From a virus, in the IMG/VR virus record IMGVR_UViG_3300038321_000117, positions 1 to 28,292 of that record: a stretch of 28,292 bases of DNA. One strand, 5' to 3'. The translations under genes and the position numbers were made by a program. This document shows, piece after piece, positions 1,409 to 11,860 of this stretch. Under the pieces are notes generated by a model. It was not told the origin of the DNA and did no database searches. It saw only the letters and a list, made by a program, of their open reading frames with translations. Within the stretch, counting starts at the first letter, position 1, and each line of letters starts with the position of its first letter.

Positions 1409-1546
1409 AAAACTCTTCAATTCTTCGAGTAAAACAACACTTTTCAGGTATGATGTTTTGAGAAGGTATATTTACTCATCTGAAAAAAGATAGGGTGCGG
1501 AAACATATAGTTTTGATATGTTTCAGGGGTAATATTTTGATTCTAG
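1409..1546 (+). repeat. copy 1 of a ~140-bp conserved non-coding element
   Basis: 1413-1524 aligns without gaps to the reverse complement of 11745-11856 (77/112 identical by hand count). Contains TATATTTA (1467-1474) and a perfect 9-bp hairpin GAAACATAT/ATATGTTTC (1500-1524). Confidence 0.85.
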
Positions 1547-1788
1547 TCTATGGTTACTCGACCATTTGAATCAAGAATAAATCCAAGATCAGAGTTAACA
1601 ATACAACAAGTATCAATTTTACCTGACTGTTTATCAATGTTGCAAATGTTACTACACATCACATGGTTTCCATACTCATCCACAAGTTCAAGCGTAACAG
1701 ATTTATCATTGTCTACAAGATTAAAGTAGACATTCTTAACCTTACTCTTTTCCTGAACTTTACCATCGAAAATTCCTTCAACACCCAT
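1543..1788 (-). CDS. hypothetical protein, tandem paralogue 3 of 3
   Basis: Shares G[VI]FD..YF[KN]L.D..L.[LV]VD..G..IC.I.K..GKI..[LI]GF.LD..GRV with its two neighbours. Confidence 0.8.
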   Translation of the reverse strand: MGVEGIFDGKVQEKSKVKNVYFNLVDNDKSVTLELVDEYGNHVMCSNICNIDKQSGKIDTCCIVNSDLGFILDSNGRVTID

Positions 1789-2028
1789 TTACTCCACCTT
1801 TACCCTTCCATATTCGTCAAGATCAAATCCAATGGTTTTATTTACATCCATTTCTCTTTTAATCTTGCCTGTAGTCTTACTGATTCCGCAGATATATGGT
1901 GCATTAATTCCAAGACCTTCTTCATCAACAACTTTAATTAATATATTATTCATACCCCGATCTTCTAGTTTAAAGTAAAGTCTCTTCTCACACTTCTTCT
2001 TCTTCTCATCAAACACGCCTTCAATCAT
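1789..2028 (-). CDS. hypothetical protein, tandem paralogue 2 of 3
   Basis: Same motif set; TAAATG stop-start junctions on both sides. Confidence 0.8.
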   Translation of the reverse strand: MIEGVFDEKKKKCEKRLYFKLEDRGMNNILIKVVDEEGLGINAPYICGISKTTGKIKREMDVNKTIGFDLDEYGRVKVE

Positions 2029-2265
2029 TTACTCCACCTTAACCATTCCATCCCAAGTGAGATCAAATCCAAGTTTATCAGCAACACTACCAATGCGAAT
2101 AATCTTACCTGACTTCTTACTGATGAAACAAATATTTGCTATAGACTCACCGCTCTGATTAACAACCTCAAGCGAAACATTCTGTTCAAAATCATTCAGT
2201 TTGAAGTAATACTTCTCTTCCTTGTTCTTTTCCGCGTCAAAGACGCCACAAACCTTGTAATCCAT
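2029..2265 (-). CDS. hypothetical protein, tandem paralogue 1 of 3
   Basis: Same motif set. Likely start is ATG at 2265 (MDYKVCGVFD), matching paralogue length, rather than TTG at 2340. Confidence 0.8.
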   Translation of the reverse strand: MDYKVCGVFDAEKNKEEKYYFKLNDFEQNVSLEVVNQSGESIANICFISKKSGKIIRIGSVADKLGFDLTWDGMVKVE

Positions 2266-2360
2266 TTTCTTTACACCAAACCTATGTTGTATACAATTAG
2301 TTTTACGTTTGTCTATAAAAGGGTTTTGAAATTGATTCAACCTGAACTATTATGCAAAAA

Positions 2361-2957
2361 TTATTCTGGATGATAATACCGATACAAGTAATAACGTAGG
2401 GTATTTTCGACATTGAAACAAATATTGTCGATAGAACCATTTACATCCAGAATGAAATACCGATGTTTTCCTTCTTTTGCAAGTTTTATATAATTGTCCT
2501 GAATCTTACTTAAACGCTGTATTTCCTCTGTCATGTTGTTTATCTTACGCCGTTTGGCATTACGTAAGGCGAACATCGATGGATTACCGTAAAGTAAGAT
2601 GGTTATATCGGGAAAGAGTGTATTACCATCGAAGAAGCGCATAATATTATCAGTATCACGCGAGAGGACCACACCATAACGCGCAATGATTTCATCCAGG
2701 TAAGAATCAGTAATCACAATCTTACCCTCTTCGAGTGCAGGAGTGATGAATGAATCAATGTGGTCATAATGATCGAGCAGCGTAAGAAGTAACTGTTTTT
2801 CGGGATTGTCTTTATGTTTCTTAATCAAATCACGCATATCTTCAGCGAATGGTTCTGCCGTGTAAACAATATCTTCAAAGTCAGTCAGATTTTCACGTAA
2901 ATAGTTAAGGACAGTGGTTTTTCCACTTCCCTCAACACCTTCAATACTTATAATCAT
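2361..2957 (-). CDS. tmk: thymidylate kinase
   Basis: ISIEGVEGSGKTT P-loop, TAEP, DHYDH, ITPALEEGKIVITDSY, FPDITILL. Start set at ATG 2957 after SD GAGGTG. Confidence 0.85.
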   Translation of the reverse strand: MIISIEGVEGSGKTTVLNYLRENLTDFEDIVYTAEPFAEDMRDLIKKHKDNPEKQLLLTLLDHYDHIDSFITPALEEGKIVITDSYLDEIIARYGVVLSRDTDNIMRFFDGNTLFPDITILLYGNPSMFALRNAKRRKINNMTEEIQRLSKIQDNYIKLAKEGKHRYFILDVNGSIDNICFNVENTLRYYLYRYYHPE

Positions 2958-2968
2958 TTTATACCACC

Positions 2969-9656: not shown

Positions 9657-9657
9657 T

Positions 9658-10323
9658 TTAATCAACTCCTACAAATCTTTCAATATCATTTTTATCTCGT
9701 GTTATATAAATGTGTGGAATTAGACTTACGTGTTGGTATCGTCCTACGGGTAATCCAAGCGAATCTGCAATGTATTTTTGCAAATGAACAAGTCCAAACG
9801 CATTTTGACCGAAGGCAGCGCACATATCGTTGCTACGGAAGGTTACATTCATGCACAACTTTCCATCTATGATTACACATTGCACATGATTTAAACAGGG
9901 ACAATTCTCCATATCAAAGTGTAGAGGTGGATTCCACAGAGACATAACCGCTTGACGGGAAGTAGGATGATCTCTAAGTTCATTGATTACGTAGGCAACC
10001 TGATTGAAATGGCTATAAACAAAATCATAACAATCCTCATCGCCATACATATAATTAAACATCAAATCATGATAAGTATAATCAAAATCTGCCTTAGTTC
10101 CATGTAGAATCTGTTTTGCATACTGTTCTGCAAATAGTTTACCAAAAGGTGCTCGTTCACTAATCATTGGTTCCGTGAGTGGATTATCAATTACAATGCA
10201 AGAACCATCAATTTCAAGTGTCTTTTCCCCTTTCGTTGTAATACGCTCGTAACCTTTATTGTATATTTCCTTTACAATAAGTTCATGTGCGCGTCCAATG
10301 CAATACGTATGAATCAGTTTCAT
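9658..10323 (-). CDS. thyA: thymidylate synthase, archaeal-type
   Basis: TSRQAVMSLWNP, PCL catalytic Cys, FRSNDM, AFGQN (dUMP-specifying Asn position), HIY. Confidence 0.8.
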   Translation of the reverse strand: MKLIHTYCIGRAHELIVKEIYNKGYERITTKGEKTLEIDGSCIVIDNPLTEPMISERAPFGKLFAEQYAKQILHGTKADFDYTYHDLMFNYMYGDEDCYDFVYSHFNQVAYVINELRDHPTSRQAVMSLWNPPLHFDMENCPCLNHVQCVIIDGKLCMNVTFRSNDMCAAFGQNAFGLVHLQKYIADSLGLPVGRYQHVSLIPHIYITRDKNDIERFVGVD

Positions 10324-10325
10324 TT

Positions 10326-11198
10326 TTACACCAACATCTGTTTCAAGTAAAAGTCAATCTCACTCTGCATATAATCAAACGATATATTGTTGTTTAATCT
10401 ACACGTAAACAATTCACTGTCTCTGTGTATCGTAAACATACCCTTATCTCTCTCTACGCGCTCTTTTCCTACACGTTTAATTCTGGTAGACAAATCAGCG
10501 TAGACACGAATGCACTTGATGTCATACACTTCACCAAAATTTTGCATGAGGTAAATCAATCCACGCTCATCAATTACATATGTGTTATAATCCAGCACAT
10601 CCTTCTTCAAGCAACAGTAACGATACCCACCAAATTCAGTGTAAGCAATCATATCATCGCGTGAGAAGGTATCAAACTCTTCTTTGGTTACAAAAGTATG
10701 TCCTGTCTCACCTGGATAACGTATAGGACGATCCGTGTAGGACTCCATCATCTTGATACCATGCTCACGCTCAATATACTCTGCAATGGTTGTCTTACCA
10801 CTTCCTGACTCGCCCACAATACAAATAATAGTAGGATTACGGTTTGCCTTACGCATTACATGGTAGCGAATATCATTCCAACAAATAACCCTGTGTGAGT
10901 ATTCCTTATCATCAATGTAGACATCTGCACCAATCTTTCTACAATCATTACCATATTCCTCAATACGGTAACAAAGGTTCTCATTGACAGCATTGAACTT
11001 GATTTCATTAACAATGAGAAATTCAACCATTTCACGTTCTTCTTTACCCTGACGACATGAATTGATGATAATATCATGTCCCTCATCATATAGTTCATTG
11101 ATTACCTCTTTTGCATTACGCTTCAGATAACCAATGTCAGGATACTTGTTTGTTACAATAGTTCCGTCGAAATCTATTGCAATGACTAATTTCTTCAT
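10326..11198 (-). CDS. HAD-family phosphatase fused to guanylate-kinase-like P-loop nucleotide kinase
   Basis: N-half IAIDFDGT, INSCR, KIGADVYIDDK. C-half IVGESGSGKTT, SYTDRPIR, HTFVTKEEF, YTEFGGYRY. Start ATG 11198 after SD GGTGA (TAATG overlap). Confidence 0.8.
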   Translation of the reverse strand: MKKLVIAIDFDGTIVTNKYPDIGYLKRNAKEVINELYDEGHDIIINSCRQGKEEREMVEFLIVNEIKFNAVNENLCYRIEEYGNDCRKIGADVYIDDKEYSHRVICWNDIRYHVMRKANRNPTIICIVGESGSGKTTIAEYIEREHGIKMMESYTDRPIRYPGETGHTFVTKEEFDTFSRDDMIAYTEFGGYRYCCLKKDVLDYNTYVIDERGLIYLMQNFGEVYDIKCIRVYADLSTRIKRVGKERVERDKGMFTIHRDSELFTCRLNNNISFDYMQSEIDFYLKQMLV

Positions 11199-11626
11199 TA
11201 ATTCACCACACATACAATAATAAATCCAATCATAAAACCAATAAGAATACAAACAATGTAAGAATAATTTTGATCTATTATATTACCAATAGTTCTTTCT
11301 TTGACTTGTTCATCAGTAATCAAAACTTCTTCCTCTTCTTCTTCCATATTCTCCAATTCTTCAATGATCATATCCACATCAATGAATCGTGCTTCTGGTT
11401 GTGGATTTACTTCTGCCATTGATTTAAGTGTAAGGAGAGAACGTGTAACAGCAACAGCAAGTTCTTCATCCTCAAATGATGCAATGAGTAATGTTGATGA
11501 TGATAATCCATTAACATCATACCTTTCTGTCAATTCGTTGTAACGACACTCAAATCCACAGAAATCGGGGAAATTGTAAGGAGTGTAGATTTCATTCTCC
11601 TCATCATAAATATCAAGACAGATCAA
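11198..11626 (-). CDS. acidic protein with C-terminal transmembrane helix
   Basis: Poly-Glu stretch and hydrophobic tail YIVCILIGFMIGFIIVCVV; SD AGGTGA before TTG. Confidence 0.6.
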   Translation of the reverse strand: MICLDIYDEENEIYTPYNFPDFCGFECRYNELTERYDVNGLSSSTLLIASFEDEELAVAVTRSLLTLKSMAEVNPQPEARFIDVDMIIEELENMEEEEEEVLITDEQVKERTIGNIIDQNYSYIVCILIGFMIGFIIVCVVN

Positions 11627-11723
11627 AACTTCACCTGCATAATTAGTTTTCAGTTTGATTATTTATGTCTTATGTTTTGAACAGAAAAAAGAATAGTTAC
11701 TTTACACGATAACAATGTGCCTC

Positions 11724-11860
11724 TACAATCAAAAAATCATACCGGAATCATATCGTTTTCGTATGTTTCCAGACCCTATCTTTCTTTGGACGGGTATTTA
11801 TACCTTTGAAAAAGATAGGTGTCAGAAATGCATGTTTTACTCAAAGAATTGAAGAGATTT
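11724..11860 (-). repeat. copy 2 of the ~140-bp conserved non-coding element
   Basis: See copy 1. On the - strand: TATAAATA (11795-11802), imperfect hairpin GGAAACATACG..CGATATGATTCC, then a T6 tract. Confidence 0.85.

What the first reader, a model, noticed from the sequence alone, without database searches (positions are those of the whole stretch)
1409..11860. Two inverted copies of a ~140-bp promoter-hairpin-T-tract element bracket the nucleotide-metabolism block
Seen: 1413-1524 (+) and 11856-11745 (-) align without gaps at 77/112. Conserved blocks are CTCTTCAATTCTTYGAGTAAAACA, AAGGTATA, AAAGATAGGGT, GGAAACATA and GATATG, and similarity continues to GGTA..TTTTGATT.TAG. Each copy sits in sense orientation just after a stop codon (protease; polB). 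Each has a TATA-like octamer about 25 nt before a hairpin whose stem is kept while the loop differs completely, then a T-tract. Copy 1 points into the antisense strand of the paralogue genes, so it has no downstream ORF to drive. Inference: paralogous small-RNA genes (~50 nt). The GGAAAC end resembles CRISPR repeat 3' handles, so an RNA anti-CRISPR or repeat mimic is one option. Alternatives: protein-bound origins, or recombination sites able to invert the ~10.2-kb block between them.
Basis: partly seen in the sequence, partly recalled or inferred. Interest (0 to 1): 0.8.

Follow-up and report, generated by a model that had tools for sequence, protein, structure and literature searches.

The report
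Promoter-bearing intergenic repeats, archaeal virus
The two inverted 140-base copies are real, but they are two of at least five or six copies of a conserved intergenic repeat that most likely carries a promoter in an uncultured archaeal tailed virus, not small-RNA or anti-CRISPR genes.

Summary
Window 1413-1524(+) and 11856-11745(-) match 77/112 without gaps, and the next best match in the window is 52/112.

The pair does not specifically bracket the nucleotide block. Complete relatives (69, 65 and 62 kb) carry five or six paralogous copies each, all co-oriented with the neighbouring genes.

Four boxes keep fixed spacing:
- A: GAGTAAAACA core
- B: TATA-like octamer
- C: AAGATAGG, 21-23 nt after the TATA start
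- D: TTTGATTnTrG

The supposed RNA body between C and D is the least conserved part (59% among copy-1 orthologues). RNAalifold finds no shared pairs on either strand.

The virus uses archaeal BRE/TATA promoters. The B-C module also stands alone about 35 nt upstream of a gene start.

A metagenomic CRISPR array has at least 8 of 18 spacers against this virus clade, one of them on box A. Its repeat is unrelated to the element.

All four relatives that hold both copies are collinear with the window, so no inversion is seen.

Best reading (about 0.55): promoter-bearing intergenic repeats with regulator boxes, analogous to the intergenic repeats of halovirus HF2. Promoter activity is inferred, not shown.

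The parts
1409..1546 (+). Copy 1 (class c1) of the intergenic repeat, at the convergence of the + strand late genes and the long - strand operon. Its last four bases, CTAG, supply the stop codon of the - strand ORF 1543-1788.
   Evidence: orthologues in 11 IMG/VR contigs and many metagenome contigs
1413..1436 (+). Box A of copy 1 (CTCTTCAATTCTTCGAGTAAAACA). The family-wide core is GAGTAAAACA at 1427-1436.
   Evidence: 96% identity among c1 orthologues; matched 27/29 by CRISPR spacer sp13
1467..1474 (+). Box B of copy 1: TATA-like octamer TATATTTA, preceded by the purine-rich GAGAAGG.
   Evidence: no indels between B and C in the family alignment
1486..1496 (+). Box C of copy 1 (AAAGATAGGGT), the predicted initiator region. 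GATAGG starts 22 nt after the TATA start.
   Evidence: 100% identical among c1 orthologues
1500..1524 (+).
   Evidence: not conserved in the family
1535..1546 (+). Box D of copy 1 (TTTTGATTCTAG).
   Evidence: TTTGATT.T.G is invariant in 30 copies
1380..1408 (+). Hairpin GTAAGAGG/CCTCTTAC plus T6 just upstream of copy 1. The stop codon of the 184-aa ORF lies in its loop. It is a terminator-like end of the + strand genes and is not part of the repeat.
   Evidence: conserved in all c1 orthologues
11723..11860 (-). Copy 2 (class c2) of the intergenic repeat, between PolB (11870-14194) and the next - strand gene (start 11626). It fills the only large gap inside the ~26-kb - strand operon.
11833..11856 (-). 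Box A of copy 2.
   Evidence: 29/29 match to CRISPR spacer sp13 over 11832-11860
11795..11802 (-). Box B of copy 2: TATAAATA, preceded by CAAAGG.
11773..11783 (-). Box C of copy 2 (AAAGATAGGGT).
11813..11819 (+). Second AGATAGG on the opposite strand, mirror-placed on the other side of the TATA octamer. It gives dyad symmetry around box B.
   Evidence: (p about 0.005)
11723..11738 (-). Box D of copy 2 (TTTTTTGATTGTAG).
27383..27396 (-). Consensus archaeal BRE/TATA promoter (CGAAACATTTAAATA) at the head of the long - strand operon, followed by AAGATAT 10 nt after the TATA. Used as the reference for promoter grammar in this virus.
   Evidence: equivalents in G001

Best explanation
The two copies belong to a family of ~140-bp intergenic repeats. 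There are at least five or six paralogous loci per genome in a narrow clade of uncultured archaeal tailed viruses (probably of methanogens) from anaerobic digesters.

Each repeat carries a host-type archaeal promoter core. This is a purine-rich stretch plus a TATA-like octamer (box B), then a conserved initiator region AAGATAGG (box C) at a fixed 21-23 nt from the TATA start. Host RNA polymerase with TBP and TFB would start near the 3' end of box C, in the same direction as the neighbouring genes.

Two further boxes at fixed distances most likely are shared recognition sites for a virus- or host-encoded regulator. Box A (GAGTAAAACA core) lies about 40 nt upstream of the TATA. Box D (TTTTGATTnTrG) lies about 40-50 nt downstream of the start. 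Box D may also act as a U-tract attenuator. Either way, all copies would be switched together.

Copy 2 would restart or boost transcription of the nucleotide-metabolism and repair genes after PolB. Copy 1 sits where the late and replication operons converge. It would give a short or counter-transcript over the distal end of the - strand operon.

Shown: multi-copy family, orientation, block conservation, fixed spacing, absence of conserved RNA structure, archaeal promoter grammar of the virus.

Inferred: promoter activity, start site, regulator binding, role of box D.
For: Family and placement:
- 5-6 copies per complete relative, each class with orthologues, all co-oriented with flanking genes.
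- Boxes A-D are 90-100% identical among c1 orthologues while spacers are 59-81%.
- There are no indels between B and C, and at most 1 nt between C and D, across six classes.

Archaeal host machinery:
- CGAAAnnTTTAWATA promoters head the operons.
- A 137-nt tRNA hit implies an intron.
- The Dcd protein's second-ranked Atlas cluster is 89% archaeal, commonest phylum Methanobacteriota.

B-C as a promoter:
- AAGATA recurs at the same distance from the TATA in the main operon promoter.
- The same motif sits at the ATG of the HNH gene of G001, which would suit a leaderless transcript.
- A stand-alone B-C module lies about 35 nt upstream of a GGAG-preceded ATG in all three complete genomes.

Other:
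- Dyad symmetry centred on box B in classes c2-c4, and fold z-scores near -2 on both strands, point to a DNA-level rather than RNA-level signal.
- Precedent: the intergenic repeats of halovirus HF2 carry promoters, with the start site inside a conserved box (PMC8707807).
Against: - There is no transcript data, so promoter activity and start site are inferred from sequence only.
- Box B lacks the strong CGAAA BRE of the consensus promoters.
- Copy 1 has no downstream gene to drive.
- Sense-strand T-runs (T4-T7), including box D, could stop archaeal RNA polymerase before any gene is reached.
- The strict conservation of boxes A and D is not explained by promoter function as such.
- Class c5 lacks box C.
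- The clade is narrow (PolB at least 88% identical), so orthologue comparisons have limited depth.
Confidence: 0.55

Rival explanations
1. Small-RNA genes. The promoter fires and the transcript ends at the box D T-tract, giving a ~45-50-nt RNA that is itself the functional product.
For: - The promoter-like B-C module and a T4-T7 tract lie at a nearly constant ~38 nt from box C in all classes.
- Copy 1 has no downstream gene.
- The 5' (AGGGU...) and 3' (GGGUAAnnUUUUGAUU) ends of the putative RNA are conserved in several classes.
Against: - The RNA body is the least conserved segment: 59% among c1 orthologues and 41% between classes. It comes in unrelated types that swap between otherwise close genomes.
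- There is no consensus structure on either strand.
- The proposed stem pairs in 59% of cells against 51% shuffled.
- The 58-nt putative RNAs fold with z of only -1.0 and -1.8.
- There is no Rfam match.
- No complementarity to other parts of the viral genomes beyond chance was found.
Confidence: 0.15
2. Boundary elements acting on RNA or on passing polymerase. These would be multi-T-tract terminators, or palindromic (REP-like) 3' end or processing hairpins, that close the upstream transcription unit. They could also act as recombination linkers between gene modules.
For: - Every copy lies just after a co-oriented gene.
- The sense strand has more T runs of 4 or longer than the antisense strand (107 against 77 over 30 copies).
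- Long imperfect palindromes occur in classes c2-c4.
- Gene content varies right next to the copies. An RNA-ligase-like gene is present or absent after copy 2, and the number of paralogue genes after copy 1 varies.
Against: - T6 runs also occur inside operons.
- Copy 1 already has a separate hairpin plus T6 terminator upstream.
- The palindromes are class-specific with no common RNA structure.
- The conserved non-T boxes A, C and D are not explained.
Confidence: 0.15
3. Protein-bound DNA sites unrelated to transcription. These would be replication origins, or recombination sites that invert the ~10.2-kb block.
For: - The arms are inverted, with a 28-nt stretch at 93% identity at the outer ends.
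- There is dyad symmetry around an AT-rich centre.
Against: - There are five or six copies per genome, oriented with transcription.
- All four relatives that hold both copies are collinear with the window.
- No serine or tyrosine recombinase was found among the block's proteins.
- The arms are only 72% identical.
Confidence: 0.06
4. RNA anti-CRISPR or CRISPR-repeat mimic. Part of the element (the GGAAAC end, or box A) imitates a host CRISPR repeat and sequesters Cas proteins.
For: The reverse complement of box A ends in ATTGAAGAG, which from memory recalls the ATTGAAAG ends of some archaeal repeats. GGAAAC is present in the two window copies.
Against: - GGAAAC is absent from most classes and from several c1 orthologues.
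- Box A never occurs as a repeated array unit. The genome scan gave 3 single coding hits, and the metagenome scan gave 43 loci with none array-like.
- The only array found that targets this clade has the repeat GAGTTCCCCATGCACGTGGGGATGAACCG. This shows no similarity to the element, and the best match anywhere in the viral genomes has 10-11 mismatches of 29. Box A is a protospacer in that array, not a repeat.
Confidence: 0.02

Closest known systems
Class I intergenic repeats of halovirus HF2 and other haloferacalesviruses (Russ, Pfeiffer and Dyall-Smith 2021, PMC8707807)
   Same: - Multi-copy intergenic repeats in an archaeal tailed virus with inward-facing gene modules.
- Blocks of identical bases separated by variable positions.
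- Positions conserved among related viruses.
- A TATA box with a conserved box over the start site, plus an upstream conserved box whose mutation did not affect promoter activity.
- Some repeats are active in both directions and give counter-transcripts.
   Different: - No sequence similarity: the HF2 motifs are absent from the window's two copies.
- The repeat here is ~140 bp, not 58 bp.
- It has an extra downstream T-rich box (D) at fixed distance, and long dyad symmetry in some classes.
- Promoter activity is untested here.
- The host is a non-halophile, probably a methanogen.
Canonical archaeal BRE/TATA promoters, as at the heads of this virus's own operons
   Same: An AT-only octamer preceded by purines, and an AAGATA-type initiator region at the expected distance.
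   Different: The CGAAA BRE is replaced by GAAGAGG or CAAAGG, and the octamer is TATAWWTA rather than TTTAWATA. This suggests a weaker, factor-dependent promoter.
RNA anti-CRISPRs / solitary repeat units of phages (recalled from memory: Camara-Wilpert et al. 2023)
   Same: A short non-coding unit with its own promoter-like signal in a viral intergenic region.
   Different: No similarity to the repeat of the array that targets this virus, and no conservation of the repeat-like part.
Bacterial REP/BIME extragenic palindromes (recalled from memory)
   Same: Multi-copy, orientation-specific, imperfectly palindromic intergenic elements at gene ends.
   Different: These are viral and much longer, centred on a TATA-like octamer, with no shared hairpin across classes.

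Membership tests
Promoter-bearing viral intergenic repeats (HF2 type) | Several copies of a repeat confined to intergenic regions of one viral genome | tested here: met
   2 copies in the 41%-complete window. 5, 6 and 5 copies were detected in the relatives of 69.4, 64.7 and 62.0 kb (100%, 93% and 90% complete; G006 lacks the c1 site). All are intergenic or at gene ends.
Promoter-bearing viral intergenic repeats (HF2 type) | Sequence and genomic position conserved among related viruses | tested here: met
   c1 and c2 sit at the same junctions in G001, G002, L014 and L103. Boxes are 90-100% identical among orthologues.
Promoter-bearing viral intergenic repeats (HF2 type) | TATA box and conserved initiator box at promoter spacing | tested here: met
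   GATAGG starts 21-23 nt after the start of the AT octamer, with no indels across classes. The same AAGATA motif sits at the virus's consensus promoter and upstream of gene starts.
Promoter-bearing viral intergenic repeats (HF2 type) | Measured promoter activity and mapped start site | not testable with these tools
   No transcript or reporter data are available.
Promoter-bearing viral intergenic repeats (HF2 type) | Sequence homology to the HF2 repeats | tested here: not met
   HF2 motifs TCTTTAAGTC, CTTTAAGT and CCCTTTAC are absent from the window's two copies. The resemblance is functional and architectural only.
Structured small-RNA gene | Transcribed part conserved in sequence or structure, with compensatory changes | tested here: not met
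   0 consensus pairs on both strands. The stem pairs in 59% of cells against 51% shuffled. The body is the least conserved segment.
Structured small-RNA gene | Own promoter and terminator flanking a short unit | tested here: inconclusive
   The B-C module and a T4-T7 tract are about 40 nt apart, but whether they are used is unknown.
RNA anti-CRISPR / solitary CRISPR repeat | Similarity to a CRISPR repeat of the host | tested here: not met
   The array with at least 8 of 18 spacers against this clade has an unrelated repeat. Box A is never arrayed in the genome or metagenome scans.
Invertible DNA segment | Both orientations found in a population or among relatives, with a recombinase nearby | tested here: not met
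   Four relatives are collinear with the window. No recombinase domain was found in the block. Read-level data were not available.
Archaeal-type replication origin | One or few sites per replicon: AT-rich unwinding element flanked by inverted initiator boxes | tested here: inconclusive
   Dyad symmetry around an AT-rich centre exists in some classes. However, there are 5-6 copies tied to transcription direction, and no Orc1/Cdc6 binding data.

The most novel reading that the evidence does not exclude
The repeats are a virus-wide switch. One regulator recognises boxes A and D at all copies. Each copy makes a short U-ended promoter-proximal RNA with a freely evolving ~30-nt body between conserved ends. 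Read-through into downstream genes, or across the converging operon at copy 1, would be controlled at box D. This would be a new kind of attenuator or small-RNA family in archaeal viruses.
Probability: 0.12. Interest if true: 0.6.

Novelty: new member of a known kind. Interest (0 to 1): 0.35.

Why it matters
Almost nothing is known about how tailed viruses of methanogens time their gene expression. A conserved, multi-copy promoter cassette with two unexplained boxes gives concrete sites to test. Possible tests include reporter assays, pull-downs of the binding factor, and mapping of digester metatranscriptomes. The CRISPR array found in passing links this virus clade to a cellular immune record and shows that the conserved box is itself a CRISPR target. 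The finding does not reveal a new type of system.

Tried and rejected
- Rfam at gathering thresholds on the window and on the 69-kb relative: only tRNAs.
- tRNA scan of the window: none.
- Bacteroidetes-type promoter (TTTG / TAnnTTTG): considered early, dropped once archaeal BRE/TATA promoters and an intron-bearing tRNA were seen.
- C/D-box sRNA: an ATGATGT...CTGA pair exists only in window-type copy 1 and is not in the orthologues.
- Leader peptide starting at the TTG of box D: mini-ORFs of 7-24 codons, similar within a class but unrelated between classes. An SD-like GGGGTRA is present only in c1, c3 and c4.
- DGR template/variable repeat pair: mismatches are not confined to adenines, and both copies are intergenic.
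- MITE or transposon: no terminal inverted repeats of the unit and no transposase.
- Antisense target search of the variable segment within the viral genomes: only chance matches of 11-14 nt.
- Box A as a CRISPR repeat: no arrays found.
- Nearest isolates: no nucleotide match in the phage collection, and PolB is at most 28% identical to isolates.
Control genomes give no handles.

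
Full report
**1. Observation**

The two stretches are real and far beyond chance.
- Window 1413-1524(+) and 11856-11745(-) match at 77 of 112 positions without gaps.
- The wider pair 1409-1546 / 11860-11723 matches at 96 of 138.
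- The next best ungapped match of the 112-mer anywhere in the window is 52.
- BLAST within the record gives E 7.5e-15.

Placement is also as described.
- Copy 1 follows the 184-aa ORF, after a hairpin plus T6 at 1380-1408.
- Copy 2 begins 6-9 nt after the PolB stop.
- Copy 1 abuts the stop codon of the converging - strand ORF 1543-1788.

**2. What the record is**

The window is a whole IMG/VR record of 28.3 kb, estimated 41% complete. It has no close isolate: no nucleotide match, and PolB is at most 28% identical to isolates.

A closely related contig (93-98% nucleotide identity in the shared stretches) is a complete 69,364-bp genome with 113-bp terminal repeats, GC 36%. It is a siphovirus with a tape-measure gene. 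Late genes on the + strand converge on a long - strand replication and nucleotide operon.

The host transcription system is archaeal.
- CGAAAnnTTTAWATA motifs sit at the heads of operons, including window 27383-27396(-).
- One tRNA hit spans 137 nt, which implies an intron.
- The Dcd protein's second-ranked Atlas cluster is 89% archaeal, commonest phylum Methanobacteriota.
- Earlier notes of this scan also call it a methanogen virus. I treated that as a lead only.

**3. The pair is part of a larger family**

- The 24-mer of box A finds copy-1 orthologues in 11 viral contigs.
- Profile and BLAST searches of three (near-)complete relatives find five or six paralogous loci per genome. I call the classes c1 to c6.
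- Each class has orthologues at the same genomic place.
- Every copy points the same way as its neighbouring genes: c1 is on the + strand and all others are on the - strand.
- So the pair does not specifically bracket the nucleotide-metabolism block. Copy 1 marks the convergence point, and copy 2 fills the only large gap inside the - strand operon.

**4. Anatomy**

In a 30-sequence alignment of all classes (A2) four boxes are kept:
- A: core GAGTAAAACA
- B: a TATA-like AT octamer preceded by purines
- C: AAGATAGG
- D: TTTGATT.T.G, which is invariant

Spacing is fixed. There are no indels between B and C, and at most 1 nt between A and B and between C and D.

Among copy-1 orthologues the boxes are 90-100% identical. 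The spacers are 77-81% identical, and the segment between C and D only 59%. That segment comes in unrelated types. One type carries TATATAAAG, and the types swap between otherwise close genomes, which suggests exchange between paralogues.

In classes c2 to c4 the sequence left of box B is the inverted image of the sequence right of it. In copy 2 this puts a second AGATAGG on the opposite strand at 11813-11819.

**5. Tests of the RNA-gene reading**

- RNAalifold predicts no pair on either strand for the family.
It is lost in several copy-1 orthologues and in classes c3 and c4.
- Folding z-scores are about -2 for the whole element on both strands. They are -1.0 and -1.8 for the putative 58-nt RNAs. 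This fits DNA dyad symmetry rather than a strand-specific RNA.
- There is no Rfam family.
- The variable segment has no complementary target in the viral genomes.
- The copy 2 loop is roughly the reverse complement of the copy 1 loop. This looks like a small hairpin-mediated inversion.

**6. Tests of the CRISPR reading**

- GGAAAC is present in only some classes.
- I also considered box A, whose reverse complement ends in ATTGAAGAG. A degenerate box A pattern gives three single hits inside unrelated sequence in 185,579 species genomes.
- In the metagenome collection box A gives 43 loci, none with array-like repeats. 36 of the 43 score as copies of the element (35 near full length).
- One hit is different. 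It is a 1,180-nt contig (L127) that is a CRISPR array of 19 repeats GAGTTCCCCATGCACGTGGGGATGAACCG with 32-33-nt spacers.
- At least 8 of its 18 spacers match this virus clade. Spacer 13 matches box A: 33/33 to copy 1 of the 69-kb relative and 29/29 to window copy 2.
- That repeat has no similarity to the element, and no solitary repeat exists in the viral genomes.
- So box A is a CRISPR target, not a mimic.

**7. Tests of the DNA-site readings**

- The four relatives that hold both copies are collinear with the window in flanks and interior.
- No recombinase domain lies in the block.
- Five or six transcription-oriented copies do not fit an origin.

**8. Best explanation**

Boxes B and C behave like a promoter core.
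- The AT octamer is preceded by purines.
- GATAGG begins 21-23 nt after the octamer start, so the predicted start falls at the end of box C.
- AAGATA also occurs 10 nt after the TATA of the main operon promoter.
- It also sits directly at the ATG of the HNH gene of the relative, which would suit a leaderless transcript.
- A stand-alone B-C module lies about 35 nt upstream of a GGAG-preceded ATG in all three complete genomes.

The closest precedent is the class I intergenic repeat of halovirus HF2. It has conserved boxes, a TATA box, a start site inside a conserved box, positions kept among relatives, some reverse activity and long counter-transcripts. There is no sequence similarity to HF2.

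Boxes A and D are not needed for a basal promoter. Their strict conservation at fixed distance suggests shared regulator sites, and box D could also act as a U-tract attenuator.

Copy 2 would restart transcription after PolB. Copy 1 would give a short or antisense transcript at the operon convergence. All of this is inference from sequence, and I put it at about 0.55.

**9. Verdict**

This is a real, conserved and selectively maintained element. The evidence does not support the small-RNA reading and argues strongly against the anti-CRISPR reading, and the bracket idea comes from seeing only 41% of the genome. It is a new member of a known kind, promoter-bearing intergenic repeats of archaeal tailed viruses, with two unexplained boxes that deserve a bench test.

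Noticed in passing
L127 (metagenome contig ERZ795032.38288, 1-1180); protospacers at window 11832-11860, 1408-1436 and 27498-27529: A CRISPR array of 19 repeats (GAGTTCCCCATGCACGTGGGGATGAACCG, 29 nt) with 32-33-nt spacers. At least 8 of 18 spacers match this virus clade at 0-4 mismatches. Spacer 13 hits the multi-copy box A, and spacer 12 hits window 27498-27529 (31/32). The upstream flank is AAG for 3 of 8 protospacers. The geometry and repeat resemble type I-E (from memory). The organism was not identified.
   Followed up: partly
window 1-28292 (26 sites on + strand, 7 on - strand): The 7-mer MGTGTAA is over-represented and strand-skewed: 33 sites against 8.2 +/- 2.6 in shuffles. On the coding (-) strand it reads TTACAC[GT] and falls in two reading frames (15, 8 and 1). 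The same skew flips with gene direction in the 69-kb relative. The palindrome TTACACGTGTAA is clustered near that genome's left end.
   Followed up: partly
window 11626-11630 versus L017:9665-10555 (G001 49665-50555): Relatives G001, G006 and L014 carry an extra ~890-nt stretch directly downstream of copy 2 that the window lacks. In G001 and G006 it is a 296-aa RNA-ligase-like gene (PHROG 548, E 5e-12, scored on G001). G002 has an 88-aa ORF there. Gene content also varies next to copy 1 (three small paralogues in the window, fewer in G001).
   Followed up: partly
L015:16906-17201 (-): The 69-kb relative has three adjacent tRNA genes. One of them spans 137 nt in the Rfam hit and was missed by ARAGORN, which implies an archaeal-type intron.
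   Followed up: partly
L015:1-280, L015:15320-16207 and L018 (G001 69220-69260): The relative has clusters of TTAC(AC)GTGTAA palindromes near the terminal repeat and at 15.3-16.2 kb. It also has GC-rich, apparently structured non-coding stretches in an otherwise 36% GC genome. These are candidate origin, packaging or non-coding RNA regions.
   Followed up: no
window 1509-1515 versus 11754-11761: The hairpin loops of the two copies (AGTTTTG and CGAAAACG) are near reverse complements. Across classes the loop occurs in either orientation (GTTTT in c1 and c6, AAAAC in c2 and c5). This is consistent with small inversions between the stem arms.
   Followed up: partly
window 1380-1408: A hairpin GTAAGAGG/CCTCTTAC followed by T6 has the stop codon of the 184-aa ORF in its loop. 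It is conserved in all copy-1 orthologues and looks like the terminator of the late genes.
   Followed up: no
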